Assembly: GCA_017447305.1 (NCBI GenBank)
Contig: JAFSNY010000080.1
Location: 20,884 to 84,883, forward strand
Origin: Bacilli bacterium
GTDB lineage: Bacteria > Bacillota_I > Bacilli_A > RFN20 > CAG-826
Direction: 5' to 3'
DNA length: 64,000 nt
Part shown: in pieces, positions 1 to 60,347 of the stretch
Numbering within the stretch: the stretch's first letter is position 1
How the letters are laid out: the number at the start of each line of letters is the position of its first letter
Notes under the pieces: generated by a model
Seen by the model: only the letters and a program-made list of their open reading frames with translations
Database searches by the model: none
What the model was told of the DNA's origin: nothing
Made by a program: the position numbers and the translations under genes

Positions 1-341
1 AGAAAATTGGAACAAGCACTCCACCAATTAAAACAAGTGATGGCTGGTTAGTCCTTTATCATGGAGTGTCTACTAAAGATGATGCTTACCGTGTTGGAGC
101 GATTCTTCTCGATTTAAAAGATCCTTCCAAGATTCTTGCGAGAACTAAAGATTTCTTAATGGAACCTGAAGAAGAATATGAGACGAATGGCTATTATAAC
201 GGATGTGTCTTCCCAACCGCGACTGTTCCTAAAGATGGTGATTTATACATCTACTATGGCGCGGGAGATAAAGTTATCTGCTTAGCGACATGTAAAGAAA
301 ATGAACTTCTTAAATATTTAAAGGAGGAATGCCATGAATAA
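1..341 (+). CDS. GH130 family glycoside hydrolase / beta-mannoside phosphorylase, C-terminal part. The gene starts upstream of the window, and the frame is open from nt 3.
   Basis: The translation from nt 3 (KIGTSTPPIKTSDGWLVLYHGVSTKDDAYRVGAILLDLKDPSKILART...IYYGAGDKVICLATCKENELL) matches the conserved C-terminal blade of GH130 phosphorylases. It is in frame with the listed ORF 66..341. Confidence 0.7.
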   Translation, partial: KIGTSTPPIKTSDGWLVLYHGVSTKDDAYRVGAILLDLKDPSKILARTKDFLMEPEEEYETNGYYNGCVFPTATVPKDGDLYIYYGAGDKVICLATCKENELLKYLKEECHE

Positions 342-1623
342 AAAGATTAAATTATTCGTCACCGCAGGATTAATCCTTTCTTCTGTTTCTTTGCTTTCTG
401 TCAAAAGTAATAAAACAGGAATTAAAGCGGTGGAAGGAGAATTATATTACGTTGATTTCTTCAATAATTATTTAAGAGAAGAATTCACTCTTTCTAGTGG
501 GTTTACAGGTCGAGGCAATAATGTCATCTATAAGACCGTTCAAGTCACCAAAGACTCCTTAGTGGATAAGCCAGAAGATCCAACAAGAAGAAATTATGAA
601 TTCCAAGGCTGGTATAAAGAAGAAGCTTGCTTAGAAGCGTGGAACTTTGATACTGACAAGGTCATTAAAAACACGAGAATCTTTGCCAAATGGGGAATCT
701 CTAGCAAAGAAGAGATGGTGGAACCAGAATATACACCTCCATCCACGGTGTTAGAAGAAAGTGCGGAAACTGAATATGTTCTTAATTCCGTTATGAACTT
801 TGTTCCTAATGATTTAGATCAAGTTAAGCTTCCAACAGCAGCATTAGAAAAACTCGAAGCTAATAAAAACGACGTTCTTCCACTAATGGAATATAAAGTC
901 AAAGCTAGCAAGAGCATAACTGCGACATATAACAACAATAAAATCACCATTACATGTGGCGATGAGGAGAGAGTTCTTCAAGTCAAAGATGATAGTGAAA
1001 ACTTAACTCTTTCAACTTCTTCTTATGAAACCAAAGCCAAGAATTATGAGAAAAAGGCTCTAGAAGAAGAAAGCTATCACGTCATGCTTGCTGGATCTTC
1101 CTCAATTGAATTCTGGGAATCTTCTAAAGAAGACTTAGCCCCAATCGTTAGCTATAACCACGGTATTGGTGGCACGACGATTGAAGAATGGGATGAAAAA
1201 CTCAATGCGAGACTTGTTCTCCCATATAAACCAAAGATGGTTGTTTATTACGTTGGTATTAATAACGTTATTAACTCCAAGCAAGATAAAGACACCATTT
1301 GGACAAATCTTAAGAAGTTCTTAGATGACACTCATGAGAGTCTTCCAGACACCAAGGTTCAATATATCTTGATGAATTTAATTCCTAACTACACAAGTTA
1401 TTTCGATACGATTAACGCCGTTAATGATCAAGTCATCGAATATCAAAAGAGCAATGAATCATGGTTGACTCTCATTAATCCAGGACTAGCTTTAGTCAAA
1501 GAAAACGGAGTTCCTAACGCGGCATACTTTAGAACCGATGGTCTCCATCTTTCCTATTACGGATATGTCGTTTGGGGAGAAATCGTTAAAGAATCAATCC
1601 TTAACGGACTTGAGAATATGTAA
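334..1623 (+). CDS. Secreted SGNH/GDSL-family hydrolase, a probable carbohydrate esterase, with an N-terminal signal peptide and a Listeria/Bacteroides-type repeat.
   Basis: The N-terminus MNKKIKLFVTAGLILSSVSLLS looks like a signal peptide. The C-terminal half carries SGNH motifs (MLAGSSS..., GGT, DGLHLS). YEFQGWYKEE...W resembles the Flg_new/InlB-B repeat. The start overlaps the GH130 stop. Confidence 0.7.
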   Translation: MNKKIKLFVTAGLILSSVSLLSVKSNKTGIKAVEGELYYVDFFNNYLREEFTLSSGFTGRGNNVIYKTVQVTKDSLVDKPEDPTRRNYEFQGWYKEEACLEAWNFDTDKVIKNTRIFAKWGISSKEEMVEPEYTPPSTVLEESAETEYVLNSVMNFVPNDLDQVKLPTAALEKLEANKNDVLPLMEYKVKASKSITATYNNNKITITCGDEERVLQVKDDSENLTLSTSSYETKAKNYEKKALEEESYHVMLAGSSSIEFWESSKEDLAPIVSYNHGIGGTTIEEWDEKLNARLVLPYKPKMVVYYVGINNVINSKQDKDTIWTNLKKFLDDTHESLPDTKVQYILMNLIPNYTSYFDTINAVNDQVIEYQKSNESWLTLINPGLALVKENGVPNAAYFRTDGLHLSYYGYVVWGEIVKESILNGLENM

Positions 1624-1625
1624 TT

Positions 1626-2114
1626 ATGTTTTATAGCGTCGATGTGAGTGATGAGTATAAGAAAGCTAAATCTAAATTCCTTAGACATTCTTTAATCTTC
1701 TCACTCATCTTCGCTTTAATCATCATCGGTGATGTCTTACTTGTTTACTTCGCAAGTGAAGACTTCACAGTTAATCTTATTATTTCCATTATTCTCACCA
1801 TTATCTTTGCGTGGGGCGCTATCTATTACTTCGTGAATGTATATGGTGAGATTAATACGAGATATCGTTTCTTCAAAGGTTTTGAAAGCGGAATCAAACC
1901 AATTGAAGAAATTGTATTTCTAAAAAAAGAAGATGAACTCCATTACGTTAACGGATTATATGTTTATCGCTTATACGTTAAATATATTGAAAACCTTAAC
2001 GAAAAAGAGAAAATCATCTATACCTTAGAGCCGAATCTAAAGTATGAAAATGGTGATAAATTAACAATTACCACCTATCAGAGAATCCTTATTCAAGCGG
2101 AGAAACATTCATGA
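1626..2114 (+). CDS. Hypothetical 2-TM membrane protein
   Basis: ORF with two hydrophobic helices (LIFSLIFALIIIGDVLLVYF; LIISIILTIIFAWGAIYYF). It is translationally coupled to its neighbours. Confidence 0.5.
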   Translation: MFYSVDVSDEYKKAKSKFLRHSLIFSLIFALIIIGDVLLVYFASEDFTVNLIISIILTIIFAWGAIYYFVNVYGEINTRYRFFKGFESGIKPIEEIVFLKKEDELHYVNGLYVYRLYVKYIENLNEKEKIIYTLEPNLKYENGDKLTITTYQRILIQAEKHS

Positions 2115-2710
2115 ATACGCTTAGAAAAGAAAGGATTAAGGCCGCATTTAAATATACTTGGCCGTTCTACATTATTTCCGCATTAATCATTGGGTTTGGT
2201 TTAAATTTCATTTTCTCCATTACCCATAAAACACCAGCGTATAAGACTTTAACGGTATTTGTTTCTGGTATTGTTAAAGATCTTAAAGCCTTCAAAAAAG
2301 ACACTCTTGCTAAATATGAGGACAAGGAACTAAAAAGTGTCACTTATATTGAAGCGGATCCATCAGAAGGCACTTATTATACGAAACTATCTGTCGCTGG
2401 TTATAGTTCCGCGGATGTCTTAATCATTCCAGTGTCAAAACTGGAGAATCTCAATCTCTCTGCTTTCGCTTTAGAACTTGAAGATTCGTTAATCAACGAG
2501 TACTGTCCAGGATATACATTCTATAAACAAGAAGAGATTAATTATGGAATTAAACTCGATAAGTCGATAATTGAGGAATATGTCTATTTACCTAGTGAAG
2601 ATTGCTATATGTTCTTAAATGCAACAAGCGTTAATCTTGGTGAATATTCAAAGAAACAAATTAAAGAACACGATGTAGCCTTATGTGTCGCTAAAGACTG
2701 GGGGATGTAA
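2111..2710 (+). CDS. Hypothetical single-TM membrane-anchored protein
   Basis: It has one N-terminal TM (WPFYIISALIIGFGLNFIF). ATGA start/stop overlaps occur with the flanking ORFs. Confidence 0.5.
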   Translation: MNTLRKERIKAAFKYTWPFYIISALIIGFGLNFIFSITHKTPAYKTLTVFVSGIVKDLKAFKKDTLAKYEDKELKSVTYIEADPSEGTYYTKLSVAGYSSADVLIIPVSKLENLNLSAFALELEDSLINEYCPGYTFYKQEEINYGIKLDKSIIEEYVYLPSEDCYMFLNATSVNLGEYSKKQIKEHDVALCVAKDWGM

Positions 2711-3588
2711 TGTTTAAAAGAAAAGAAGAAAAACACATCACAGACAAAGACGTTATGAGAACTCTTCCGCACACTAGAAGAGAAGTGTTTTTCGATTTGC
2801 TTAAACACAGAAAGATGAGTTTATTTGCTTTATCTTGTTTTACCTTCATGTTTTTTATTCCTCTTGCAGTGGATTTAATCTTCTTTAACTTCTTACAAAA
2901 CGTCGCAATTGCGAGTGATAAGACGGACTATTTATTCTCCCTATTTTTCTATGAAATGATTATTTTGATTCCATGTATGGTCATCGGATGTTTGGGGCTT
3001 GCTGGGGCCTTTGAAGTGGCAAAAAACATGGTTTGGCAAGAAGGGACAATGCTCGCGAGTGATTTCTTCCATGGAATTAAGACAACATGGCTTCACGCGT
3101 TGACAAATGGACTAATTCTTGGAGTGATTCTTTCCGCGGGTGTTATTGGCAGTTGTTTCTTACTTATATACCAGCCAGTAAGTTCAATTATCATTGGTGT
3201 TGGAATGGGTGCGATGATTCTCTTCTTCCTATTCTTTGGAATGGCGATTGTGATGAATTACACTCAAGATGCCTATTACCAAAACTCTTATGGAGCGATT
3301 TTAAAAAACTCCTTCCGCTTCATGGGATTATTAAACTGGAGATTACTCGTAATCTTCCTTCTATCTACAGGAGTTGTTGTCACCCTTTGTTTCTTCAATA
3401 TGGTGACATTAATTATCGGAATGGCGTTATTTGCAGTTCTTAATAGTGTAGTGGTTATTCTCTACACCTTAGTGTCCCATTCCGCCTTTGATAAATACAT
3501 TAATATGGATAATTACCCCCACTTGGTCGGAAGGGGTTTATATAAAGTCGAAGATAACGACGAAATAAATAAAGACAAGGAGGCCTAG
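2710..3588 (+). CDS. DUF624/YesL-like polytopic membrane protein
   Basis: There are about 6 TM helices. The N-terminal region (REVFFDLLKHRKMSLFALSCFTFMFFIPLAVDL) is reminiscent of the YesL family, which is often found beside sugar ABC transporters. Its start overlaps the upstream stop by 1 nt. Confidence 0.5.
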   Translation: MFKRKEEKHITDKDVMRTLPHTRREVFFDLLKHRKMSLFALSCFTFMFFIPLAVDLIFFNFLQNVAIASDKTDYLFSLFFYEMIILIPCMVIGCLGLAGAFEVAKNMVWQEGTMLASDFFHGIKTTWLHALTNGLILGVILSAGVIGSCFLLIYQPVSSIIIGVGMGAMILFFLFFGMAIVMNYTQDAYYQNSYGAILKNSFRFMGLLNWRLLVIFLLSTGVVVTLCFFNMVTLIIGMALFAVLNSVVVILYTLVSHSAFDKYINMDNYPHLVGRGLYKVEDNDEINKDKEA

Positions 3589-3592
3589 TTTT

Positions 3593-5476
3593 ATGGCAGA
3601 TGTAACACTACGACATGTTTACAAAGTATATGATGGAGGCGTAAGAGCGGTTAACGACTTTGATCTTGATATTAAAGACAAGGAATTCGTTGTTTTCGTT
3701 GGTCCATCTGGATGTGGTAAATCCACAACTTTAAGGATGATCGCTGGACTTGAAGAAATTACCGCTGGTCAATTATTTATTGATGGTGAATTAATGAATG
3801 AGGTTGAACCAAAAAATAGAGATATCGCGATGGTATTCCAAAGCTACGCTCTATATCCTCATATGACCGTCTATGAAAACATGGCCTTTGGATTAAAACT
3901 AAGACATACACCCAAAGATGAAATCGACCGTCGTGTTAAAGCCGCTGCAGAGATTTTGGAAATTTCCGAACTTCTTTCACGTAAGCCAAAAGCCCTTTCT
4001 GGTGGTCAAAGACAACGTGTTGCTTTAGGTAGAACGATCGTTCGTAATCCAAAAGTCTTCCTTCTTGATGAACCTTTATCTAACTTAGACGCGAAATTAC
4101 GTGTTTCAATGAGAAGTGAAATTACTAAACTCCATGAAAAACTTGAAACGACCTTTATTTATGTTACTCACGACCAAACCGAAGCGATGACGATGGGGAA
4201 TCGTATTGTCGTTATGAAAGATGGATTTATTCAACAAGCTGACACTCCTATCACCTTATTTGAAGATCCATGTAACTTATTTGTCGCGACCTTCCTTGGC
4301 TCTCCTCAAATGAATATTATCGACGCTGAATTATTCATGGATGGAAAAACCCTTAAGGCCAAACTTAATGACTGTGATGATTTAATCGTTTCTTTCCCTG
4401 ATATTAAGGCGAAACAACTCGCTGATAAGAAATATATTGGCGGTAAAGTCCTCTTAGGTATTAGACCAGAACACGTTAGACCTAACGCTGGTAATTTAAA
4501 GACCTATGTCGATGTTGTTGAACATTTAGGAGATGAATCCATCCTTTACACAAAGATGGAAAATAGAAAAGATCAATTCATCATCAAGATGCCATTTAAT
4601 TCGAAGATTCATGCGAATGAGAGCATCAGTGTTGAATTTAATATGGATCATGTTTATTTATTCGACTGCGACACTCATAAAGCGATTATGGGTATCCCAA
4701 ATGAAGATGAAATTCCAGTTACCATTCATAAGAATATGATAACGATAGGGGAACAAGAACTTACTCTTTCTGACGAATTTGTTTCTCACCTTCTCGATAG
4801 CGCATTCGACAAAGAAGTCCACCTTGCGATTAAACCAGATTATGTGACACTTGAAGAAGTTCCTAATTCCTTAAAGATTGAAGCTAAATTAGAATTTGTT
4901 GAACAAAAGACAGACTACCAAGCTTTATATTTCTCCATAAAAGGAATTGAAGGTTACTTTGCGATGAAAATAAGAAATGAAGAACAAATTAAACTTGGAA
5001 GCAAAGTTAATCTCTATCTCCCATATTTAAGACTCACCGTTTATGATGAAGACCACAACAAAGCCTTCTCAAGAGAAGTAGTGCATGAGAATCGTGGTGT
5101 TGCTAATGTCGTTAATAAGAATGGTATGACCATTATTAGAGTCGGCGATTCGACACTTGCTTATCCAGATAATGGTCAATATCCTGATGGTCAATATGAC
5201 ATTATCTTTAAACAAGATAAGTTAATGACAATCTTCTCCAAAAAACTTCTTAAGAAGGGTTATGAGAATCCAGAAATGGATGAACCTCGTAACAGAATCA
5301 AAGTCTCAGCGTATGACGAAGATGTCCTTGGCGATAAGCTTCTTACTTATGTTGAAGTCAAAGGATTTGATAATTATGCATCATTTGTTGTGAACAACAA
5401 TTTCTCCGTTTATAAGATGCCTAAATTTGAATTATTTGTCCCTGCTGATGGATTTATCTTAGAACCAAGAAACTAA
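3593..5476 (+). CDS. MalK/MsmX/UgpC-type sugar ABC transporter ATP-binding protein, with a ~260-aa C-terminal extension (additional TOBE-like repeats).
   Basis: Walker A GPSGCGKST; Q-loop; signature LSGGQRQRVALGR; Walker B FLLDEPLSNLD; H-loop VTHDQ. The canonical MalK regulatory domain ends near aa ~365, and a further ~260 aa follows. Confidence 0.9.
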   Translation: MADVTLRHVYKVYDGGVRAVNDFDLDIKDKEFVVFVGPSGCGKSTTLRMIAGLEEITAGQLFIDGELMNEVEPKNRDIAMVFQSYALYPHMTVYENMAFGLKLRHTPKDEIDRRVKAAAEILEISELLSRKPKALSGGQRQRVALGRTIVRNPKVFLLDEPLSNLDAKLRVSMRSEITKLHEKLETTFIYVTHDQTEAMTMGNRIVVMKDGFIQQADTPITLFEDPCNLFVATFLGSPQMNIIDAELFMDGKTLKAKLNDCDDLIVSFPDIKAKQLADKKYIGGKVLLGIRPEHVRPNAGNLKTYVDVVEHLGDESILYTKMENRKDQFIIKMPFNSKIHANESISVEFNMDHVYLFDCDTHKAIMGIPNEDEIPVTIHKNMITIGEQELTLSDEFVSHLLDSAFDKEVHLAIKPDYVTLEEVPNSLKIEAKLEFVEQKTDYQALYFSIKGIEGYFAMKIRNEEQIKLGSKVNLYLPYLRLTVYDEDHNKAFSREVVHENRGVANVVNKNGMTIIRVGDSTLAYPDNGQYPDGQYDIIFKQDKLMTIFSKKLLKKGYENPEMDEPRNRIKVSAYDEDVLGDKLLTYVEVKGFDNYASFVVNNNFSVYKMPKFELFVPADGFILEPRN

Positions 5477-5478
5477 TC

Positions 5479-6215
5479 CATGAAAAAAGATTTTAATCAT
5501 AATTACTATAAAGATTTATATCTAGACATGTTTCTTCCTGAACAAGAAGAGTTTTTTTACCATCATTCATTTTCATGGTGGTGGATTAGTTGAAGGGGAT
5601 AAGGGAGACGCTCATTTATTTTGCGAACATCTATGCAAGCTTGGTTATGCGGTAGTGAGTGCGAATTATAGTCTAATGCCTAAAGCCAAGTTTCCTGATT
5701 ATTTATATGATGCGGCGAATGCGGTTAAATATGTCATGGATAACATATCTAAGCATGGTAAATCGAGAGGATTTATTATCTCTGGCCAATCCGCGGGAGC
5801 GTGGATCACGTTAATGCTTTGCTTTAATAAAGATTATTTAGAATCTGTTGGTATTAACACCAAGATGATATGTGGCTGGGTGAGTGACGCTGCGCAAACG
5901 ACGAGTCATTTTAACATCTTAAAGATTGAAAAGGATCTTCATCCATGGATTCAAAGAATCGATGAATGTGCTCCTCTATATTATGTTAATGAGAAGACCA
6001 CATTTTCTCGTTTATTACTCCTTGCTTATGAAAACGATTTACCAAACCGTATTGAACAAAACCAATTATTACTATCAACAATAAAGTCGTTTGATAAGGA
6101 CGCTGATGTAGAATTCAAAATACTTAAAGGAAATCACTGTCAAGGCAGTTCAACACTTGACTCTGATGGAGAATTTGAAGTTGTAAAAATCATGGAAGTA
6201 TGGTTGGATAAATAG
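5479..6215 (+). pseudogene. Alpha/beta-hydrolase (esterase/lipase, HGGG type) interrupted by a +1 frameshift in a T7 homopolymer.
   Basis: ATG at 5479 gives MKKDFNHNYYKDLYLDMFLPEQEEFF and then a stop. The +1 frame continues ...TIIHFHGGGLVEGDKGDAHLF...GQSAGAW (oxyanion HGGG plus the GxSxG nucleophile elbow). Deleting one T from gagttttttta (~5543-5553) fuses both into a single ORF. Confidence 0.65.
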
Positions 6216-10636: not shown

Positions 10637-11476
10637 ATGGATAAGAAAATATTAACAGTGCAAGATATATCTTGTTATGGTCAGTGCTCGATTACTGTCG
10701 CACTTCCAATTTTAAGCGCGTTAGGTCATGAGACCATTATTCTCCCAACCTCAGTGTTATCAACACATACCTCAGGGTTTAAAAACTTTGTTGTTAAAGA
10801 CCTGACTGATCAGTTTGACGCGATATTAAATCATTGGAAGAAGGAACATATTACTTTTGACTGCTTATATACTGGGTATTTAGGAAGCGAAAATCTTGTT
10901 GAATATATCAAATTTATCAAGGATAACTTTATGAATGAAGGTGCTTCTATCATCATTGATCCAGCGATGGGTGATGAAGGGAAATTATATCCAGCCTTTG
11001 ATTTAAAATATGCAAAGAAGATGCAAGAACTCATCCCTCTTTCTGATATTATCCTTCCTAACGTTACAGAAGCATGTTTCTTAAGCGATACTCCTTACGT
11101 TGAAAAATATGATGAAATATATATCAAAGATTTATTAGTTAAATTAGAAGCAAAAGGATGCAAAAAAATCATCCTCACCGATGTCAGTTTTGAAGAAAAT
11201 ACGACAGGAGTGTATTCATTAATTGATGGAAAGTATAGTTATTACAAACATCAAAAGATTGGTAATGGAATACATGGAACTGGGGATGTTTTCTCCTCAA
11301 CATTCGTCGGTGTATATTTATTAAAGAACGATATTCATCTTGCAATTAAGATGGCTGCTGATTTTGTTTATCGATGTATCGTAAACACCATTGATGATAA
11401 GAGTCATTGGTATGGTGTTAAATTCGAAAAACAAATCAAACATTTACTCAAGGGGATTGAAGATGAAAGTTTATAA
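10637..11476 (+). CDS. pdxK: Pyridoxal/pyridoxamine kinase (PfkB ribokinase superfamily)
   Basis: ILTVQDISCYGQCSITVALPILSALGHE is the N-terminal PdxK/PdxY signature. GTGD lies near the C-terminus. Confidence 0.7.
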   Translation: MDKKILTVQDISCYGQCSITVALPILSALGHETIILPTSVLSTHTSGFKNFVVKDLTDQFDAILNHWKKEHITFDCLYTGYLGSENLVEYIKFIKDNFMNEGASIIIDPAMGDEGKLYPAFDLKYAKKMQELIPLSDIILPNVTEACFLSDTPYVEKYDEIYIKDLLVKLEAKGCKKIILTDVSFEENTTGVYSLIDGKYSYYKHQKIGNGIHGTGDVFSSTFVGVYLLKNDIHLAIKMAADFVYRCIVNTIDDKSHWYGVKFEKQIKHLLKGIEDESL

Positions 11477-12036
11477 ACACATTTATGAAAATATTGGTAA
11501 CACTCCATTAGTGGAACTTACTAATTTAGAAAAAGAATTTAGCTTAAGAGCTAAACTCGTTGCCAAGGTTGAAAGTTTTAACAACCAGCAAAGAAATTTA
11601 CGATGATTTAGATGGTCAAATTGATATCTTTGTATCTGGCGTTGGAACTGGTGGAACAATCAGTGGAGTGGGCAAATATCTTAAGGAAAGAATTCCTAAT
11701 GTTAAGATAGTTGCAGTGGAACCAAAGACATCACCAGTTTTATCAAAAGGCGAATCTGGTAAACATAGAATCCAAGGTATTGGAGCAGGTTTTGTTCCTA
11801 ATACTTTAGATACATCCATCTATGATGAGGTTATTACCATTGATGATGAAGATGCCTTTGAAATGGGCAGGATGTCTGCGAAAAAAGAAGGACCTCTTGT
11901 TGGTATTTCTTCAGGAGCCGCTATTAAAGCAGGACTTATCTTAGCTAGTAGAAAAGAAAACGAAGGAAAAACCATTGTCGTATTTCTTCCAGATACAGGC
12001 GGAAGATATTTATCAACTGCAATGTTTGATAAATAA
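11463..12036 (+). pseudogene. cysK: Cysteine synthase (O-acetylserine sulfhydrylase) remnant with an internal deletion and frame change
   Basis: The N-terminal 41 aa MKVYKHIYENIGNTPLVELTN...KVESFN are CysK-like up to the position before the PLP-binding Lys, then run into a stop. A second frame (11560..12036) encodes the CysK C-terminus (GVGTGGTISG...IQGIGAGFVP...GISSGAA). About 120 aa of the middle are missing. Confidence 0.7.
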
Positions 12037-15925: not shown

Positions 15926-16038
15926 GTAAAATAATCCATCTATTAATTAATTGAAGAAAAACTGGTGCTTCCTCACCAGTTTTCTTCATATAATCTAAAA
16001 GATTATGCTATATTATATTTGTGGTTTGGAGGAAGCGT

Positions 16039-17473
16039 TATGAAGAGATTCATTAAAGCATTAACAATACCATTTGTTTTAGGAGCGACATTGTCCTTTT
16101 TTGTTGATTTTGAAAGTAAAGAATTTGTTATCGCTCAAGCTAGTGGCGCGCTTCCCACAACAATATCGTTAAGAGATAATACAGAAACAGAAATTAGGAA
16201 TTATTACAATAACCTTAATTCTCTTGCTGAAAGTGAACTTCAAGGTACAAATCTCTTAAAGAACTTAAAACCAATCCTTTCTAATAACCAAAGAATGTAT
16301 TCATATGATAGAAATAATGGTACAGAAATTTGGCAGTTATATGAAATCATTGATCGCGATTGGGAACTATCTCCTGCAAATGAGATAACCACTGGCACAT
16401 ATGATGAATCGACAAAAACGATTACTGGATATACATATGGAAAAAGCGCCAGTAATCCAGGAGATAATCCATATGTCAGAGCGCTTTATGTTGATCGCTC
16501 AGTAGAAAATCCGATGAAAGCTTGGGGCAACCACAATCAAACATATGGAGGAATCAATAGAGAGCACATATGGCCGAAATCGCATGGTTTTGATGAAGAA
16601 TTAAGTGATTCTGACGGAGCTAGGGGAGACCCAATGCATCTTTGGGCCGCAGATGGATATACCAATAATATTCATAATAATTATTTCTATGGGTATGTTG
16701 ATACTTCAAAAACTTATGTCGACTGCCAAGACAAGATTTCTTATTCCGTGGGCAATTATCTCGGAACATCGAAAACATTAGGAAAAGGCACAGTTTTTGA
16801 ACCTCAAGACTCAGATAAAGGCGATATCGCTCGTGCAGTATTCTACATGGTTGCAAGATATAACAACTACGCAGGCGCAACATCTGGAATTGACGCGAAC
16901 GAGCCAAACCTCATTTTAGAAAATAATCTAGATGGGAATAATGTCACTGGAACATCGACGGCGACCACATCGTTCAGCCTAGGTATTCTTCAAGACTTAC
17001 TTGAATGGAATAAATTAGATCCTGTTGATGACTTTGAAATCCATCGTAATAACTTATTATTCAATAACTATACATTTAATAGAAACCCGTTCATTGATTT
17101 CCCAGAATGGGCAGATTACATTTGGGGAACATCAGAAAATGGTGTTTATGACAACACTAGTAAGGGATTTGCTTCCCCATTAACCGACCCTATAAGCCAA
17201 AACCCATCACCTGAGCCTGGCACTAAAGACGAATCAACTACATCAGAATCAGAAAGCGAGTCAATTGTTCCAATACCAGAACCTCAAGATGAATCACCTA
17301 AATTTGATATGAAAATGATTATCATTATTGGTGCGGTCGTTGTGGCGGTCGTTATCATTTTGATTGTCATCTTTGCTAACGCAAGCAAAAAACAAAAAAA
17401 GAAAATGGTGAAGAGCGCAAAGAAGATTGTTAAAAAATCCTCTTCAAAAAAGAAGAGTTCAAGTAAAAAGTAA
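16039..17473 (+). CDS. Extracellular Endonuclease-I family nuclease with a signal peptide and a C-terminal TM anchor plus a Lys-rich tail
   Basis: REHIWPKSHGF, GDPMHLWAADGYTNNIHNNYFYG and FNRNPFIDFPEWADYIW match the Endonuclease I (EndA/Vvn) motifs. C-terminal IIIIGAVVVAVVIILIVIF is followed by KKQKKK.... The start is preceded by a ggagg RBS. Confidence 0.75.
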
Positions 17474-18238: not shown

Positions 18239-20059
18239 ATGAAAGTAGTGTCAATTTATAAAAAACATCTACCTGCGATGATCTTTGGCCCAATGTTAAA
18301 AATAGTGGAGGCTTTTTTTGATTTGCTTATCCCCCTATTCATGAAGGCTATTATCGATCTCCAAAACTATGCGGTTATCGATGATTTTCCAAATAAGTTA
18401 ACAGGATATATTGCTAAATTTATTAGGAGTTTTAGTCCTTGGGTAAGTGATCGCGCTTTAAGCGATGCGTTGATTGGCGGAACATTCATTTTAGCGATGG
18501 GAATTGTTGGATTCTTAATCACGATGGTTTCACAGTTTATCGCCGCCATTACCTGCGTGAAAGTTGGAACTGAGATTAGAAATACAGCCTATCTCCATAC
18601 GATGAAATTATCTAAACGAGAAAGAGAAAAGATTGGGAATGATAGAATTAACACCATTCTTAATAACGATACTTATCAGGTTCAACAAGGAGTCCTTATT
18701 TTTGTTCGATTAATCATAAGAGCACCTTTAGTCCTTATTGGTGCATTAGTCTTTTCCTTTATTCTTAATGTTTCAATCGGATTTATCTTTGTTATGATTG
18801 TTCCAATCATTTCAGTAATCGTTGTTTTTGTAATGTATCGTTCTTCTAATGCATACACAAGGATCCAAGGAGAAGTAGATAACGTTTCTAGTTATACAAG
18901 AGATGCATTACTTGGTAATAAAGTCATTCATGCCTTTGATAAGAAAGAGGAAGAATCCTCCGAATTTAAAAAAGTTAATAATTCTTATAAATATAGAGCG
19001 ATGAACGCAGTGAGGATTACTTCTTTAGTCAATCCTTTAACATTTGCAATTATCTCTCTAGCGATGATTATGGTTGTCTTCTTTGGCGGAACACCGATGT
19101 TTGATAATCCTGACGCTAGTGCGCTTGCTTCAACCATTATGGCGGAAGTTCAATATCTTGGACAAATTCTCTTTGTTGTTATGCAGTTAAGCAACGTTGT
19201 TTTAATCTTCACTAAAGCGAGAGTGTCACGTCATCGTATTGATTCTCTTCTCATGATTAATCCATCAATTATCGATGATGAAAAAGCGTTAACAAAAGAG
19301 ATAAATAACGGGGAATGTCTATATTCTTTTAATGATGTTTCTTATAAATATGAGGAAAATGGTAACGCGGCAATTAGCAAAATTACTTTTGATATAAAGA
19401 AGGGTCAATCAATTGGATTTATCGGTGGAACCGGATCTGGTAAATCAACATTAATATCTTTATTTAATCGTCTTGATGATATCAGTGATGGAAAGCTTTT
19501 ATATAAAGGAATGGATATTAAAGAATATCGATTAAAGAAACTAAGGGATGAAGTTGGTGTTGTTTCTCAAAAAGCCACTTTATTTAATGGCACAATAAAA
19601 TCTAATTTACAAATTGGAAGGTTCGATGCGAGTGAAGATGAAATGATTCACGCTTTAACTATATCCGATGCATATGAATTTGTTTCTAAATATGACGATG
19701 GAATTAATCATGAAGTAGTGGACCAAGGAAAGAACTATTCTGGCGGCCAAAGACAAAGATTATCCATCGCAAGAGCGTTACTTAAAAAAAGAGAAGTTAT
19801 CATCTTTGATGATTCAACCTCCGCATTAGATTTATTAACGGAAAAAAGAGTGAGAGAAAATATCGATAAAGAATATCAAGATATGACAAAGATTATCGTC
19901 TCTCAACGTATTTCCTCAGTGATGAATTGTGACGAGATTTATTTGTTAAATAAAGGACAAATAATCGCTAGGGGAAGTCACAACGAATTATTAAAGTTAT
20001 CTCCTGTGTATAAAGAGATTTACGAAAGCCAAATCGCTAAGGAGGGTGCTTCATTATGA
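18239..20059 (+). CDS. ABC exporter, fused permease-ATPase, subunit 1 of a heterodimeric pair
   Basis: 6-TM domain followed by Walker A GGTGSGKST, signature YSGGQRQRLSIARA and Walker B IIFDDSTSALD. Confidence 0.9.
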   Translation: MKVVSIYKKHLPAMIFGPMLKIVEAFFDLLIPLFMKAIIDLQNYAVIDDFPNKLTGYIAKFIRSFSPWVSDRALSDALIGGTFILAMGIVGFLITMVSQFIAAITCVKVGTEIRNTAYLHTMKLSKREREKIGNDRINTILNNDTYQVQQGVLIFVRLIIRAPLVLIGALVFSFILNVSIGFIFVMIVPIISVIVVFVMYRSSNAYTRIQGEVDNVSSYTRDALLGNKVIHAFDKKEEESSEFKKVNNSYKYRAMNAVRITSLVNPLTFAIISLAMIMVVFFGGTPMFDNPDASALASTIMAEVQYLGQILFVVMQLSNVVLIFTKARVSRHRIDSLLMINPSIIDDEKALTKEINNGECLYSFNDVSYKYEENGNAAISKITFDIKKGQSIGFIGGTGSGKSTLISLFNRLDDISDGKLLYKGMDIKEYRLKKLRDEVGVVSQKATLFNGTIKSNLQIGRFDASEDEMIHALTISDAYEFVSKYDDGINHEVVDQGKNYSGGQRQRLSIARALLKKREVIIFDDSTSALDLLTEKRVRENIDKEYQDMTKIIVSQRISSVMNCDEIYLLNKGQIIARGSHNELLKLSPVYKEIYESQIAKEGASL

Positions 20060-21786
20060 ACAAAGCCTTCTTAAAGCGTTATGTATTCATCTACAAGAAA
20101 GACATCGCTCTTATTTGTCTTTTCGTTGTTTTATTCCTAATCTCTCAACTATCCCAGCCATTCATTATTGGTAACATGCTCGACCACGCTTTGATGAACG
20201 ACAAGCAAACATTCGTCATTGAGATGGTTGTTTTAGCGACATTATCTCTTGTTGGAGTATTTTCTAACTTTGCCTTTGAATATTTATCTGGTGTGATTAC
20301 ACAAAAGGTTATTTATCAAGTTAGAGAAGATATATTTAGAAAATATAATTCCATTTCTATTGAGAAAATGAATCAATATTCATTAGGTGATTTATTACAA
20401 CTTGAAATTAATGATATGGAAAATGTTTCAAATGGAATATTTGCCTTATTTAAATCATTCTTAGAAGGAATAATTGCGATTTTAGTCACAATTATCATCA
20501 TGCTTTATATCAACTGGCTACTTGCTTTAGGTGTCATTCTTCTCACCCCATTAAGCGTTATTATGTCTCGCTTTGTTGGTAAATTCTCGCATACATATTT
20601 CAAGAAACAGAGTAAACTCCAAGCTGAACTTAATTCCATCTCAGTGGAAGCTATCTCTAATGGTGATATTCTCAGTTCATTTAACTATGAAGAAGAAAGC
20701 ATTAAGAAATACATCGCTAAGGATGAAGAATTATCAAAAGAAGCGAAAATCGCACAGTTTTCTGCCTCTTGGATCAATCCATCCACTCGTTTAGTTAATA
20801 ATACGATTTATGCAATTATCGGTATCGCAGGAATCATCATGATTTCATATTCATCAAATAATGTTTTAATCTCACTACTTGCGATAATGAGTGTTGGAAA
20901 ACTTTCATCCTTCCTCTCATATACATCTCAATATTCCAAACCATTTAATGATATTTCTTCGATTATTGGAGAATATGAAGCAATGAAGGCTTCAATTGAT
21001 AGAATGATGAAATTCTTAAATGAAGAAGATGATGTTGATGAAGGTGATAAAACACTCAATAATCTATCATCTATTATCTTTGATAATGTTTCATTCTCTT
21101 ATGATAAGAACAAAACACTAATCGAAGGATTTAACACTAATATTTCATCTGGCATGAAAGTTGCGATTGTTGGGCCAACAGGCGCGGGCAAGACCACTCT
21201 TATCAACCTATTGATGAGATTCTATGATCCTGATTCTGGAATCATCAAATATAACGATATCAATGGAAAAGAAATTAAAAAGTCTTCTTTAAGAAGTAAT
21301 TTTGGTATGGTTCTTCAAGAGACATGGATATTTAAGGGGACGATTTTAGAAAACGTCCGTTATGCGAAAAGAAATGCTACTAACCAAAAAGTTATCGAAG
21401 CGTGTCAACGCGCGCATTTGGACGAATTTGTTTCTTCCTTACCACAAGGATATGAAACAGTTATTTCTTCAAACGACGGTTTATCCGAAGGACAAAGACA
21501 AATGATCTCTATCGCAAGAGTGATGCTCGCTAATCCAAGCATTATTCTTTTAGATGAAGCAACTAGTAACGTTGATACAAGAACAGAGAAATTAATTATC
21601 AATTCCTTCGACAATATGACCAAGGGCAAAACATCAATTGTCATCGCTCATCGATTATCAACGATCGTTAACGCTGATATGATTCTTGTTTTGAAAGATG
21701 GTAATGTCATTGAACAAGGAAATCACGAACAACTACTTAAGAAAAAAGGTTTCTACTATTCAATGTACATTTCCCAGTTTAAATAG
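20056..21786 (+). CDS. ABC exporter, fused permease-ATPase, subunit 2 of a heterodimeric pair
   Basis: Walker A GPTGAGKTT, signature LSEGQRQMISIARV and Walker B ILLDEATSNVD. It overlaps the upstream gene by 4 nt. Confidence 0.9.
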   Translation: MNKAFLKRYVFIYKKDIALICLFVVLFLISQLSQPFIIGNMLDHALMNDKQTFVIEMVVLATLSLVGVFSNFAFEYLSGVITQKVIYQVREDIFRKYNSISIEKMNQYSLGDLLQLEINDMENVSNGIFALFKSFLEGIIAILVTIIIMLYINWLLALGVILLTPLSVIMSRFVGKFSHTYFKKQSKLQAELNSISVEAISNGDILSSFNYEEESIKKYIAKDEELSKEAKIAQFSASWINPSTRLVNNTIYAIIGIAGIIMISYSSNNVLISLLAIMSVGKLSSFLSYTSQYSKPFNDISSIIGEYEAMKASIDRMMKFLNEEDDVDEGDKTLNNLSSIIFDNVSFSYDKNKTLIEGFNTNISSGMKVAIVGPTGAGKTTLINLLMRFYDPDSGIIKYNDINGKEIKKSSLRSNFGMVLQETWIFKGTILENVRYAKRNATNQKVIEACQRAHLDEFVSSLPQGYETVISSNDGLSEGQRQMISIARVMLANPSIILLDEATSNVDTRTEKLIINSFDNMTKGKTSIVIAHRLSTIVNADMILVLKDGNVIEQGNHEQLLKKKGFYYSMYISQFK

Positions 21787-26707: not shown

Positions 26708-28498
26708 ATGATTTTTAACAAATACATCAACAAATACTACCTCAAATACATATTGTTCTTCGCAATAGGTGTTTTTGCTTTGATTATGGTGGATATCGTT
26801 CAAACACAGATTCCAAAGTTTTTAGGGCAAATTGTTGATAATATTGACGCTCTTTCAAATGATATGAGTGAACTATGGAAAATCATCAGAATGATGATGC
26901 TTTACACTGGCTTGATGTTTGTTGGAAGAGTCGCGTGGAGATTATCAATTTTCCGCGCAAGTACAGGAATTGAAGCTAATCTTCGTAAGGAAATGTTTGA
27001 AAAATCAGAGAGATTACCAACCTCTTTCTACCATGACACGAAAGTAGGAACGATTATGTCGTGGTTCACTAATGATATTGAAACCATTGGTGAATTCTAT
27101 GGATGGGGAACAATCATGCTGGTTGATGCTTTCTTCCTCTCTGTTATCGTTGTCGTTCAAATGATTATGAACGTTGATATTTATTTAACACTTATTGCTT
27201 TAGCGCCAATTCTGTTAATTGTTATCTGGGGCGCTCTTGTAGAAAAATACATGTCAATCAAATGGGAAGAAAGACAAAAAGCCTATGATGATTTATATGA
27301 CTTCGCTCAAGAAAACTTCACTGGTATTAGAGTTATCAAAGCTTTCGTTAAAGAAACAAAAGAAATTCATGCTTTTGCTAAAGTTGCTAAGAGAAATAAA
27401 GACGTCAATATTACTTTCGCTAGAGTCTCAATTCTTTTCGATGTTTTAATCGAATTAATTATCGCTATAGAATTTGCTTGTATCTTAGGTTTCGGTGGAT
27501 GGTTTGCTTTTAATTTTGCAATGGGAACTCCTGTTCTTATTTGGGGTCACCAAGTTGATTTAAGTATTGGTAAATTAATGGAATTCGTTGGATATATCGA
27601 TATCTTAATTTGGCCAATGATTGCTTTGGGTCAAATTGTCACAATGCGTTCAAGAGCGAAAACATCACTTAAACGTATCGCAAACTTCTTAGACACTCCA
27701 GAAGATGTTAAGAGTCCGAAAGACGCGATAGTATTACAAAATGTTAAAGGTAAAATTACCTTCAATCATTTCTCATTTAAATATCCAAGCAATGAATACG
27801 ATTCATTGACCGATGTTTCCTTAACAATTAATCCTGGTGAAAAGGTTGGTATTGTCGGGAAGATTGGCTGCGGTAAAACAACATTAGTCAATTCCTTATT
27901 ACGTTTATATAACATTGAAGAGAACACTATTCTCATCGACGATGTTGATTTGATGAAATGTGACATCACTTCATTAAGACAAAATATTGCATACGCTCCT
28001 CAAGATAATTTCTTATTCTCAGATAAAATTACCAACAATATTGGATTCTCATCTTCAGATCCAAGTGAAGAAGATGTTATTGAGGCCGCTAAATTTGCGG
28101 ATGTTCATGATAATATCGTTGAATTCCCTGATGGCTATAACACTGTGTCTGGTGAAAGAGGCGTCACCCTTTCTGGTGGACAAAAGCAAAGAATATCTAT
28201 TGCACGTGCTTACTTTAAGAAAGCACCAATCCTTATATTAGATGACTCTGTTAGTGCGGTTGATGTCAAAACAGAGGAAGTAATTCTCAAAAATATTATG
28301 GAGAAACGTCAAGGATTAACAACTTTAGTTGTTGCGTCCCGCGTTTCCACCATTATGCATATGGATAAAATCATCGTTTTAAACGAAGGTAAACTTGAAG
28401 CTTTTGGAACCCATAAAGAGCTTTTAGAAACCTCTGAAGTTTATAACAGAATGGTCTATCTCCAAGAACTCGAAGCTGAAGTGGAGGGAGGTAAGTAA
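26708..28498 (+). CDS. ABC exporter, fused permease-ATPase, subunit 1 of the second heterodimeric pair
   Basis: TM domain; Walker A GKIGCGKTT; signature LSGGQKQRISIARA; Walker B LILDDSVSAVD. Confidence 0.9.
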   Translation: MIFNKYINKYYLKYILFFAIGVFALIMVDIVQTQIPKFLGQIVDNIDALSNDMSELWKIIRMMMLYTGLMFVGRVAWRLSIFRASTGIEANLRKEMFEKSERLPTSFYHDTKVGTIMSWFTNDIETIGEFYGWGTIMLVDAFFLSVIVVVQMIMNVDIYLTLIALAPILLIVIWGALVEKYMSIKWEERQKAYDDLYDFAQENFTGIRVIKAFVKETKEIHAFAKVAKRNKDVNITFARVSILFDVLIELIIAIEFACILGFGGWFAFNFAMGTPVLIWGHQVDLSIGKLMEFVGYIDILIWPMIALGQIVTMRSRAKTSLKRIANFLDTPEDVKSPKDAIVLQNVKGKITFNHFSFKYPSNEYDSLTDVSLTINPGEKVGIVGKIGCGKTTLVNSLLRLYNIEENTILIDDVDLMKCDITSLRQNIAYAPQDNFLFSDKITNNIGFSSSDPSEEDVIEAAKFADVHDNIVEFPDGYNTVSGERGVTLSGGQKQRISIARAYFKKAPILILDDSVSAVDVKTEEVILKNIMEKRQGLTTLVVASRVSTIMHMDKIIVLNEGKLEAFGTHKELLETSEVYNRMVYLQELEAEVEGGK

Positions 28499-28499
28499 T

Positions 28500-59001: not shown

Positions 59002-60276
59002 TTAATCTGGGAATTCGCCGAATTTAGCAATAGCTTCGTCGATAGTTAATGGGTTTTCTAAAGCGATGATTGAATCGCCCGCTTTTCTAACTTGCTTATC
59101 AGCCCAATCGGACAATCCAATTTGAGATGGGGTGAAGCAACGTTCTTGCTTAAGTTTTCCAAATCCTGCAAACAATCCATCTAAGGACATCTTTTTACAA
59201 GGGGATGTCATACGTTTATCATTGTTCATCTTGTTTAATTCGGTAGTGGAGACGATGAATCTCATGAATTCATTGGCCATATCGAGTTTAGTACTTTTCT
59301 TATTAACGGAGAAGCATAATTCGACTGTGTTATACATATATCCACCCTCATCGGTGGTTGGAACAGGGGCAAAACTATATTTGAATAATGGTAACTTGTT
59401 ACCATGTTCGTCTTTGGGTTCTCTTTTTTCTGTGCCGGAGAAGGTGTTGCCTTTGGCAAGCATCATTGCAACATCACCCTCGAAGAATCTCTTAATGGTT
59501 GCATCATAGTCATCTTTGATGGCTGCGCATGCTTCAAGATCGACGTAGTCGTGGGACATGAATTCATTTAACATAGTTAAACTTGGTCTCATGTATTCTC
59601 CAGCGGATTTATCTTTGCTGTTTAATTTGTCAACTTTTTCTTGATCGCCAAGGATAGATGCGCAGAAATGAGGGAAGAAAATTGGATAAACAATCATGCT
59701 GTTATGTGCGAGCATTGGATAAATGCCATCCATTTCTTGGAATTTGTCACAAGCGGTAATTAATTCGTTATATGTTTCAGGAATTTTAATATTATTGTTC
59801 TTAAAGAGATCCTCGTTGACCATCATTCCATATGTTGCGGTAAAGATAGGAACATACGGAACTTTTCCGTTCGCATCCCTATAAATATATGCATCTTTGA
59901 TGCAATCTAAATTAATATCTAGATCTTCCGTTGCTAAATCTTCAGTGTATTCATCGTATAAAGAGAAATCTAAAGATGAATATGTGAAGAAGATATCTGG
60001 TGGGGTATCTCCTGATAAAGTGGTAATCAAATTCTTTTTGTGGCTTGGGTCACAAACGTAATTAATTTCAACGTTTGGATAATATTTTTGGAATCTTGCT
60101 ACTGCAAAATCTAGGGCTTCAAAGTTACTATAATGTCCCCTTACTTCTAATTCCATCTCAATATTTGTGTCTAGTCTTGGCTTAAAAGCTCTTTCACCAT
60201 TATTGTTTCCACATGAGGTAAAAGACATCGTCATAAACATTGACATTGAAAGCATTAATAATCTTTTCATACGCAT
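59002..60276 (-). CDS. Extracellular solute-binding lipoprotein (family 1 sugar ABC SBP)
   Basis: Lipobox MSFTSCGNN. ~424 aa with a carbohydrate-SBP-like fold and composition. Confidence 0.7.
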   Translation of the reverse strand: MRMKRLLMLSMSMFMTMSFTSCGNNNGERAFKPRLDTNIEMELEVRGHYSNFEALDFAVARFQKYYPNVEINYVCDPSHKKNLITTLSGDTPPDIFFTYSSLDFSLYDEYTEDLATEDLDINLDCIKDAYIYRDANGKVPYVPIFTATYGMMVNEDLFKNNNIKIPETYNELITACDKFQEMDGIYPMLAHNSMIVYPIFFPHFCASILGDQEKVDKLNSKDKSAGEYMRPSLTMLNEFMSHDYVDLEACAAIKDDYDATIKRFFEGDVAMMLAKGNTFSGTEKREPKDEHGNKLPLFKYSFAPVPTTDEGGYMYNTVELCFSVNKKSTKLDMANEFMRFIVSTTELNKMNNDKRMTSPCKKMSLDGLFAGFGKLKQERCFTPSQIGLSDWADKQVRKAGDSIIALENPLTIDEAIAKFGEFPD

Positions 60277-60347
60277 ACCTCTCTTTGCCTCTAATATATG
60301 ATATTTGTCATTTATATGAAAGATTTTGTGTTAGAATAACAACAAAG

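What the first reader, a model, noticed from the sequence alone, without database searches (positions are those of the whole stretch)
1626..5476. MalK-type sugar ABC ATPase co-transcribed with three non-canonical membrane proteins instead of MalF/G permeases
Genes 334-5476 form a single translationally coupled operon. Adjacent stops and starts overlap by 1-4 nt or are separated by only 2-4 nt. The gene order is secreted SGNH esterase, 2-TM protein, 1-TM protein, ~6-TM DUF624/YesL-like protein, then a MalK/MsmX-family ATPase.

No MalF/MalG-type permease or SBP gene is present in the operon. DUF624/YesL proteins are recurrently found beside carbohydrate ABC systems, but their function is unknown. 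This arrangement may be an uncharacterised transporter or membrane complex that recruits a MalK-type ATPase. Alternatively it may be a multitask MsmX-like ATPase parked in a glycan-esterase operon.
Basis: partly seen in the sequence, partly recalled or inferred. Interest (0 to 1): 0.65.

Follow-up and report, generated by a model that had tools for sequence, protein, structure and literature searches.

The report
MalK ATPase with odd membrane partners
The sugar-transporter ATPase does have ordinary permease and binding-protein genes just left of the window, but it is also part of a widely conserved, unnamed four-gene module with three unusual membrane proteins that may form a new kind of ABC membrane complex.

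Summary
The gene order, tight coupling, TM counts and MalK/UgpC identity of the ATPase are confirmed. The claim that no MalF/G permease or SBP is in the operon is a window-edge artefact. The same contig in a metagenome shows LacI, GH130, two EAA-loop permeases, a 534-aa SBP, two lipoproteins and GH130 directly upstream, with every gap 21 nt or less. The DUF624 call fails formally for the window protein, but 11 of 100 relatives hit PF04854 weakly.

The set of 2-TM, 1-TM and 6-TM proteins plus a MalK-class NBD recurs in shuffled gene orders. In two distant lineages it stands alone with an NBD-only ATPase and no permease nearby. The 6-TM protein also occurs fused to an NBD at either end. 14 of 15 diverged loci keep an NBD within 2.5 kb.

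AlphaFold models show the 6-TM protein with a three-hairpin fold closest to PNS1/CTL1 and CysZ, and no ABC transmembrane fold. The 1-TM protein is a membrane-anchored single lobe of a sugar SBP. The ATPase tail begins with a second MalK regulatory domain.

My best reading is that the trio docks the ATPase as an uncharacterised ABC membrane complex, and that the ATPase probably also serves the canonical permeases here. This is inference only.

The parts
1..341 (+). 3' end of a GH130 beta-mannoside phosphorylase gene, cut by the window edge. It shows that the operon continues to the left.
   Evidence: Pfam Glyco_hydro_130 at 1.4e-21. The full 338-aa gene and the upstream permeases and SBP are seen in L001.
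334..1623 (+). Secreted SGNH/GDSL esterase with a List_Bact_rpt domain.
   Evidence: Pfam Flg_new and Lipase_GDSL_2. N-terminal hydrophobic segment at aa 5-25.
1626..2114 (+). m162: a 2-TM hairpin protein with a beta-rich C-terminal domain of about 80 aa, predicted to be cytoplasmic.
   Evidence: Hydropathy. Conserved next to m199 and m292 in all close loci, with same-architecture proteins in distant loci. No Pfam or PDB match.
2111..2710 (+). m199: an N-terminal TM anchor plus an extracytoplasmic alpha/beta domain of about 155 aa that resembles a single lobe of a family-1 sugar SBP.
2710..3588 (+). m292: a 6-TM protein with both termini in the cytoplasm, remotely related to DUF624, with a three-hairpin CTL/CysZ-like fold. 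It is the proposed NBD-docking membrane core.
3593..4312 (+). ATPase NBD (aa 1-240), with Walker A, Q-loop, LSGGQ signature, Walker B and H-loop all intact.
   Evidence: ABC_tran at 2.8e-33. Motifs are read directly from the translation. Median identity among orthologues is 96%.
4313..4687 (+). MalK-type regulatory domain (OB_MalK plus TOBE_2), aa 241-365.
   Evidence: Pfam hits at aa 236-295 and 288-357. The UgpC model is covered over aa 1-365.
4688..5476 (+). C-terminal extension (aa 366-627). Its first ~120 aa are a second copy of the regulatory domain and the rest is unassigned.
   Evidence: hhalign of the regulatory domain against the extension: 96.9%, E=1.5e-10. No Pfam or PDB match. Length varies from 625 to 834 aa among orthologues.
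5480..6215 (+). Abhydrolase_3/BD-FAE acetyl-esterase gene, the last gene of the operon, broken by a +1 frameshift in a T-run near 5547-5553.
   Evidence: The gene is intact in L007 and other loci.

Best explanation
Window 1-6215 is the distal third of a ~15-kb, 13-gene beta-mannan/manno-oligosaccharide utilisation operon of an uncultured gut/rumen Bacilli MAG. The operon already encodes a canonical CUT1 importer: two EAA-loop permeases and a lipoprotein SBP.

Embedded in it is a separately conserved four-gene module, m162-m199-m292-ATPase. I propose that the three membrane proteins assemble into a membrane complex that docks the MalK-class NBD dimer.
- m292 is the docking core. It has 6 TM in three helical hairpins with three amphipathic helices. 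Both termini and most family-invariant residues lie on the cytoplasmic face.
- m199 presents a membrane-anchored, single-lobe remnant of a sugar SBP on the outside.
- m162 adds a 2-TM hairpin and a small cytoplasmic beta-domain.

ATP hydrolysis would drive a conformational cycle in this complex: transport of an unidentified solute, or mechanical work at the outer face. In this operon the same ATPase probably also energises the upstream permease pair, because it is the only importer-type ATPase gene in the operon.

Shown: gene content, conservation, fusions and predicted folds. Inferred: physical docking, stoichiometry, substrate and ATPase sharing.
For: 1. The whole operon is conserved in 16 species-level MAG loci, with m292 followed by the ATPase at a 3-5 nt gap.
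2. Distant relatives at 24-27% identity (L023, L024) carry NBD-only ATPase, a 2-TM protein, an m199-like and an m292-like gene with overlapping junctions. No BPD_transp_1 or SBP gene lies in the held flanks (L023 ±10 kb; L024 120 nt upstream, 10 kb downstream). In L023 this module is the only transporter candidate in a GDPD-GH20C-...-isomerase-G1PDH-like-ROK operon.
3. The same four genes occur in permuted orders in L092, L096, L093, L083-type and L034.
4. Among 60%-identity cluster representatives with at least 1.5 kb on both flanks, 14 of 15 have an NBD within 2.5 kb, 12 of 15 an m199-like gene and 10 of 15 an m162-like gene.
5. Natural fusions exist in both orders. P0230 is NBD then m292-like, on 2 contigs. 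P0217 is m292-like then NBD, with 14 contigs read in the contig look-up, including an NCBI genome. This fits the termini-in topology.
6. All partner NBDs belong to the type-I importer MalK/UgpC/GlcV/PotA class.
8. Family-invariant m292 residues (P20, R23, D29, Y190, N200, F260, D261, N265, G276) map to predicted cytoplasmic segments.
Against: - There is no experimental or modelled complex.
- In three independent architectures (the window type, the L083 type and the P0217 locus) canonical SBP and permease genes lie in the same locus. The trio could therefore be an accessory of the canonical importer rather than an autonomous system.
- The m292 fold matches no known ABC transmembrane domain and has no EAA motif. 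Its nearest solved relatives, CTL1 and PNS1, are argued by their authors not to be transporters (PMC13160678).
- Foldseek support for the CTL similarity is weak (E=0.11, TM 0.44).
- m162 homology to the distant 2-TM proteins rests mainly on shared architecture (hhalign 45%).
- Some 'stand-alone' contigs are short, so permeases could lie beyond them.
- One relative, L094, has no adjacent NBD.
Confidence: 0.45

Rival explanations
1. The trio is a set of accessory or regulatory subunits of the canonical CUT1 importer. m199, as an SBP N-lobe mimic, and m292/m162 would associate with the LplB/C-MalK2 complex to tether, gate or regulate it. They would not form an independent ATP-driven machine.
For: Canonical SBP and permeases sit in the same operon or locus in the window type, the L083/85/88/98 type and the P0217 locus. 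Ordinary DUF624 genes are known to sit in and be co-induced with CUT1 loci (bioRxiv 10.1101/2022.03.08.483560). m292-like proteins occur in loci for different glycans (mannan, fructan with GH32, GH2, GH20C), which suggests a role that does not depend on the substrate.
Against: Modules with NBD-only ATPases and no permease or SBP gene in the held flanks (L023 ±10 kb; L024 mainly downstream). TMD-NBD fusions are typical of core transporter subunits rather than accessories. The gene-order permutations always keep the NBD beside the trio, not beside the permeases.
Confidence: 0.3
2. The ATPase is simply the energiser of the upstream canonical importer, or an MsmX-like multitask ATPase. The three membrane proteins are functionally unrelated passengers of the glycan operon.
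For: The ATPase is a full-length UgpC/MalK match above the NCBIfam cut-off. It is the only importer-type ATPase gene in an operon that has EAA-loop permeases. NCBI annotates it as UgpC and m292 as hypothetical.
Against: 14 of 15 diverged loci keep an NBD next to m292-like genes. There are two independent fusions, and shuffled orders preserve the four-gene set. Chance adjacency across 25%-identity relatives is implausible.
Confidence: 0.1
3. One reading: in this operon the three membrane proteins replace MalF/G and no canonical permease or SBP partners the ATPase.
For: Within the window itself no BPD_transp_1 or SBP gene lies near the ATPase.
Against: The identical contig L001, and 16 orthologous loci, carry two BPD_transp_1 permeases and an SBP upstream in the same tightly packed operon.
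Confidence: 0.03

Closest known systems
CUT1 / MalFGK2-type (type I) sugar ABC importers, LplABC-like subgroup, with an MsmX/MalK/UgpC ATPase
   Same: The ATPase NBD and first regulatory domain. The operon also holds EAA-loop permeases and a large lipoprotein SBP. The setting is glycan utilisation. m199 is structurally derived from this system's SBP.
   Different: Three extra membrane proteins are conserved with the NBD. The ATPase carries a duplicated regulatory domain plus a further tail. In other lineages the NBD lacks any regulatory domain and pairs with the trio alone. m292 has no BPD_transp_1 fold and no EAA loop.
DUF624 / YesL family (PF04854), membrane proteins of unknown function in Firmicutes and Bifidobacterium sugar loci
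   Same: Multi-TM protein in CUT1 glycan loci. 11 of 100 m292-family members, and one homologue 63% identical to the window protein, hit PF04854.
   Different: The window protein gives no hit. The Pfam model covers only 77 positions. This clade is almost always next to, or fused with, an ABC NBD and comes with m199-like and m162-like partners. I found no such link in the literature the tool could reach.
CTL/SLC44 proteins (yeast PNS1, human CTL1) and CysZ
   Different: 6 TM rather than 10. About 10-13% sequence identity. No Choline_transpo Pfam hit. Foldseek TM-score is only 0.39-0.44. CTL and CysZ are not known to pair with ATPases.
ABC systems with non-canonical membrane partners (ECF transporters; SBD-fused type I importers such as OpuA and GlnPQ)
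   Same: An ABC NBD coupled to membrane proteins outside the classical permease fold, and a substrate-binding-type domain tethered to the membrane.
   Different: The NBD here is MalK-class, not CbiO/EcfA. There is no EcfT or S-component similarity. The tethered domain is only one SBP lobe and sits on its own 1-TM protein.

Membership tests
CUT1 MalK/UgpC/MsmX ATPase | Full-length match to the UgpC/MalK models, with ABC motifs plus an OB_MalK/TOBE regulatory domain | tested here: met
   NF008653 at 488 bits, above the 432 cut-off. ABC_tran, OB_MalK and TOBE_2 hits. Walker A, Q-loop, LSGGQ, Walker B and H-loop are read in the sequence.
CUT1 MalK/UgpC/MsmX ATPase | Typical length of about 360-380 aa, ending after the regulatory domain | tested here: not met
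   627 aa. aa 366-627 are extra, and the first part is a second regulatory-domain copy.
Canonical type I ABC importer (operon level) | Two BPD_transp_1 permeases with EAA loops and an SBP encoded with the ATPase | tested here: met
   Not inside the window, but in the same operon on the identical contig L001 and in 16 orthologous loci.
DUF624 / YesL (PF04854), for the 292-aa protein | Pfam PF04854 match at or above the gathering score | tested here: not met
   No hit at E up to 10.
DUF624 / YesL (PF04854), for the 292-aa protein | Remote homology through family relatives | tested here: inconclusive
   11 of 100 diverse relatives hit PF04854, best E=4.4e-5. P0219 scores 26.4 bits against a 24.2 cut-off. 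P0277, 63% identical to the window protein, has a precomputed PF04854 hit.
MalF/MalG-type permease (BPD_transp_1), for the 292-aa protein | BPD_transp_1 fold or HMM and an EAA coupling loop | tested here: not met
   [not shown]
Family-1 extracellular solute-binding protein, for the 199-aa protein | SBP_bac_1 or SBP_bac_8 HMM match | tested here: not met
   No Pfam or NCBIfam hit.
Family-1 extracellular solute-binding protein, for the 199-aa protein | Two alpha/beta lobes joined by a hinge (about 380-540 aa) | tested here: not met
   The ectodomain is only about 155 aa. About 120 residues align to part of the SBP chains.
Family-1 extracellular solute-binding protein, for the 199-aa protein | Structural similarity of the domain to SBPs | tested here: met
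   [not shown]
CTL/SLC44 (Choline_transpo) | 10-TM architecture and a Pfam match | tested here: not met
   6 TM and no Pfam hit. The similarity is at fold level only.
Proposed trio-NBD complex | Physical docking of the NBD on m292, m162 or m199 | not testable with these tools
   No multimer modelling and no access to model coordinates.

The most novel reading that the evidence does not exclude
The m162/m199/m292 trio with a MalK-class NBD is a previously unrecognised class of ABC membrane machine. Its transmembrane core has a DUF624/CTL/CysZ-like three-hairpin fold instead of any of the known ABC transmembrane-domain folds. It descends from a type I sugar importer, having kept the NBD and one SBP lobe. 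It occurs both autonomously and side by side with canonical permeases that share its ATPase. If true, this would assign a first mechanistic context to DUF624. It would also give a prokaryotic, ATPase-coupled relative of the enigmatic SLC44/CTL fold.
Probability: 0.35. Interest if true: 0.85.

Novelty: new variant of a known kind. Interest (0 to 1): 0.66.

Why it matters
ABC transporters are classified by a small number of transmembrane folds. An NBD of the best-studied importer class that is consistently linked, and twice fused, to a membrane protein of a different fold would extend that catalogue. It would also explain why DUF624-type genes accompany sugar ABC loci in gut Firmicutes.

The family is large (949 clusters at 50% identity) and common in rumen and gut Bacilli that degrade mannan, fructan and host glycans. 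Its role therefore bears on models of glycan uptake.

The fold link to CTL/SLC44 and CysZ, whose mechanisms are disputed, offers a tractable bacterial system. Even the conservative reading corrects the annotation. The operon is a complete mannan locus with a canonical importer. The 'hypothetical' genes form a defined module with a half-SBP. The ATPase carries a duplicated regulatory domain.

Tried and rejected
- Pfam and NCBIfam on the three membrane proteins at E up to 10 gave nothing usable. The weak DUF3671 and DUF6585 hits on m162 are TM-composition noise.
- BLASTP of m162 against the L023 and L024 2-TM proteins showed no similarity, and hhalign gave only 45%.
- hhalign of the m162 C-terminal domain against the MalK regulatory domain and the extension gave no relation. 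The m162 profile against PDB gave nothing.
- The extension against Pfam and PDB gave nothing. Only its first part is explained, by internal duplication.
- A profile search of the 5.8-billion-sequence set with the diverse alignment A2 was swamped by the densely sampled rumen clade and added little.
- The search for related loci with A2 and A3 failed because no stretch was conserved enough. It succeeded with the narrower A4.
- The afdb50 library was unavailable.
- Literature searches for DUF624, PF04854 and YesL found no functional study.
- The promoter and terminator scan gave no signal above shuffled controls inside the operon.
- I considered an ECF-like system and rejected it: the NBD is MalK-class and there is no EcfT or S-component similarity.
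Full report
**Observation**

- SGNH esterase: 334-1623
- 162-aa protein, here m162: 1626-2114
- 199-aa protein, m199: 2111-2710
- 292-aa protein, m292: 2710-3588
- ATPase: 3593-5476

The spacings are +2, -4, -1 and +4 nt. Shine-Dalgarno-like purine runs precede the starts, and the one before the ATPase is strong (AAGGAGG).

Hydropathy and AlphaFold give 2, 1 and 6 TM segments. The esterase has a signal peptide, a List_Bact_rpt domain and a GDSL domain.

The ATPase matches UgpC at 488 bits (cut-off 432), MalK at 438 bits, and ABC_tran, OB_MalK and TOBE_2. All ABC motifs are intact in the translation.

- The ATPase is 627 aa, about 260 aa longer than MalK.
- The operon runs on at both ends. A GH130 gene cut by the window edge overlaps the esterase start by 8 nt. 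An Abhydrolase_3 acetyl-esterase gene starts 3 nt after the ATPase stop and is broken by a +1 frameshift in a T-run.

**The 'no permease, no SBP' claim is a window-edge artefact**

The esterase and the 292-aa protein occur with identical sequence on a 91-kb metagenome scaffold, L001. Upstream, on the same strand, the scaffold carries:
- a LacI regulator
- GH130
- two BPD_transp_1 permeases
- a 534-aa lipoprotein SBP
- a 510-aa lipoprotein
- an 889-aa lipoprotein
- GH130

Then come the genes seen in the window. All intergenic distances are between -8 and +21 nt. Both permeases carry canonical EAA loops: EAADIDGATRLQKIWHITLP and ESAKIDGANDIIIFVKIFLP.

The part of this arrangement from the second permease to the ATPase is kept in all 11 of the 16 close genome loci that are long enough to show it, and the shorter contigs agree as far as they reach. 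They are rumen and gut MAGs labelled Bacilli, Erysipelotrichaceae or Bacillales.

So this is a complete beta-mannan/manno-oligosaccharide utilisation operon with a canonical LplABC-like CUT1 importer. The ATPase is its only importer-type ATPase gene. The other ABC genes in the window are exporter-type half-transporters.

**The DUF624 assignment**

The 292-aa protein has no Pfam or NCBIfam hit, even at E=10. NCBI calls it hypothetical (MBR0295531.1).

An exhaustive profile search found a large family: 949 cluster representatives at 50% identity with E of 1e-3 or better, and 611 at 1e-10 or better. Nearly all are full-length at about 280 aa.

Of 100 diverse members, 11 hit PF04854 weakly. One passes the gathering score (P0219, 26.4 against 24.2 bits). 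One close homologue has a precomputed PF04854 hit.

The protein is therefore best described as a divergent clade related to DUF624. It is not a member by the Pfam criterion.

**The four-gene module is real**

In two distant genome loci the genes run NBD-only ATPase (242 or 252 aa), a 2-TM protein, an m199 homologue, then an m292 homologue. The junctions overlap, and no permease or SBP gene lies in the flanks held (±10 kb for L023; 120 nt upstream and 10 kb downstream for L024).
- These loci are L023 (Bacilli MAG) and L024 (Acholeplasmatales DTU067), at 24-27% identity to m292.
- The m199 relationship is confirmed by profile comparison (98.9%).
- L023's operon is GDPD, GH20C, the module, a sugar-phosphate isomerase or epimerase, a G1P-dehydrogenase-like gene and ROK. 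The module is its only transporter candidate.

Sixty-four metagenome loci and several contig look-ups show the same four genes in permuted orders:
- m162, m199, m292, long ATPase
- m292, ATPase, 163-aa 2-TM protein, m199 (L092)
- m292, GFO/IDH oxidoreductase, ATPase, m162, m199 (L096)
- divergent 359-aa ATPase, then m162, m199, m292, SBP-like lipoprotein, permease, permease (L083 type)
- ATPase, m292 (L093)
- PfkB, m292, 629-aa ATPase in a GH32 fructan locus (L032)
- 163 aa, 163 aa, m292 (a DUF624 hit), 481-aa ATPase (L034)

I counted one representative per 60%-identity cluster with at least 1.5 kb on both flanks. Of 15 such loci:
- 14 have an NBD within 2.5 kb
- 12 have an m199-like gene
- 10 have an m162-like gene by HMM; two more have a protein of the same architecture

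The exception is L094, which looks like an ordinary DUF624 gene in a CUT1 locus.

Two natural fusions exist.
- P0230 (527 aa) is NBD then m292-like, and occurs on two independent contigs.
- P0217 (543 aa) is m292-like then NBD. The contig look-up read 14 contigs that carry it, including an NCBI genome (the cluster table records 9). It lies beside GH2 and an SBP-permease-permease set.

Fusion at either end fits the predicted topology with both termini in the cytoplasm.

All partner NBDs, fused or free, best match the type-I importer class: UgpC, MalK, GlcV, PotA, CysA.

**What the parts look like**

*m292.* The AF2 model is confident (pLDDT 94.6, pTM 0.89).
- It shows three TM hairpins, each preceded by a short helix: aa 23-33, 115-125 and 194-207.
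- Foldseek ranks PNS1 with probability 0.99. However, the TM-score is 0.44, E is 0.11, and no hit reaches E of 1e-3. The similarity is at the level of fold topology.
- The CTL/PNS1 fold is described as three hairpins plus three membrane-parallel amphipathic helices. CysZ and SLC25 are its only known relatives, and its function is disputed (PMC13160678).
- Invariant or near-invariant residues of the family map mostly to the cytoplasmic N-terminus, loops and tail. This mapping is an inference from the positive-inside rule plus the model. It would be expected if a conserved cytoplasmic partner binds there.

*m199.* The AF2 model has pLDDT 89.8.
- It shows a TM helix followed by a beta-alpha-beta domain.
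- The best profile hit in PDB is also an SBP (E=0.0036).
- The ectodomain is only about 155 aa. It is a membrane-anchored single SBP lobe, not a complete binding protein.

*m162.* It has two TM helices and a beta-rich C-terminal domain of about 80 aa that should be cytoplasmic. No relative was found.

*ATPase extension.* The first ~120 residues are a second copy of the MalK regulatory domain (hhalign 96.9%, E=1.5e-10). The remainder is unassigned, although its last ~60 residues read like a TOBE motif, which is my inference. Orthologues range from 625 to 834 aa. The NBD is 96% conserved, against 54-65% for the extension.

**Interpretation**

The idea of a membrane complex that recruits a MalK-type ATPase is supported by neighbourhood conservation across about 25% sequence identity, by gene-order shuffling that preserves the set, by stand-alone modules and by fusions.

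I rate 'the trio docks the NBD as an uncharacterised ABC membrane complex, with the ATPase probably shared with the canonical permeases here' at 0.45.

The main rival, at 0.30, is that the trio is an accessory or regulatory part of the canonical importer. Its support is the frequent co-location with SBP and permease genes and the lack of substrate specificity in the contexts.

'Unrelated passengers' gets 0.10 and the literal replacement model 0.03. The remaining 0.12 is unassigned.

One pattern is suggestive. In most loci where no canonical components are seen the ATPase is short and NBD-only (L023, L024, L092, L093, L096; L032 and L034 have long ones). The two operon types that include permeases carry ATPases with regulatory domains. 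The P0217 locus is a counter-example.

**Novelty**

I found no description of this module or of any DUF624-NBD link. The literature tool covers only open-access papers and preprints. I classify the finding as a new variant of a known kind, an ABC system with unorthodox membrane partners. The stronger reading, a new ABC transmembrane-domain class, is given separately at probability 0.35.

All mechanistic steps are inferred: docking, stoichiometry, substrate and ATPase sharing.

Noticed in passing
window 5480-6215: The Abhydrolase_3/BD-FAE acetyl-esterase gene at the end of the operon is broken by a +1 frameshift in a T7 run near 5547-5553. Orthologues in other loci are intact at 240-249 aa. It may be a pseudogene, a homopolymer assembly error or a slippage site. 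The independent metagenome contig L001 has the same short 179-aa gene call.
   Followed up: partly
window 4688-5476 (ATPase aa 366-627); L008, L010, L011, L015: The ATPase C-terminal extension begins with a duplicate of the MalK regulatory (OB/TOBE) domain. It varies from 625 to 834 aa among orthologues while the NBD stays about 96% identical. Partner ATPases in other lineages range from NBD-only (237-252 aa) to 481-785 aa.
   Followed up: partly
[not shown]
   Followed up: partly
window 2111-2710 (model me523fc48e148): A 1-TM protein whose ectodomain is a single lobe of a MalE-type sugar SBP. Such 'half-SBP' anchored proteins have no Pfam family.
   Followed up: yes
window 11391-12036: A cysteine synthase (PALP) gene appears internally deleted. 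A 71-aa ORF holds the CysK N-terminus and is followed by a 158-aa ORF with the C-terminal part. The same split is called on L001 and L006.
   Followed up: no
L012 and L016 (the same MAG, ruminal_MAG_226): Two contigs of one MAG each carry m162-m199-m292-ATPase. This is either two copies per genome or strain variants binned together.
   Followed up: no
L032 1-9782 (NCBI GCA_964504595.1): A fructan locus: GH32, two large lipoproteins with repeated 'NGGFE(S/T)GD..GW' motifs and no Pfam match, LacI and PfkB. It ends with an m292-like gene plus a 629-aa MalK-like ATPase and has no m162 or m199. No permease lies in the 7 kb upstream that could be read.
   Followed up: partly
window 18239-21786, 26708-30275, 15965-17473, 39985-42309, 60240-62891: The rest of the window holds two pairs of ABC_membrane+ABC_tran half-transporter genes, two secreted Endonuclease_1 proteins (one with Big_2 domains) and a hybrid histidine kinase/response regulator. 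It has no further MalK-class ATPase among its large ORFs.
   Followed up: no
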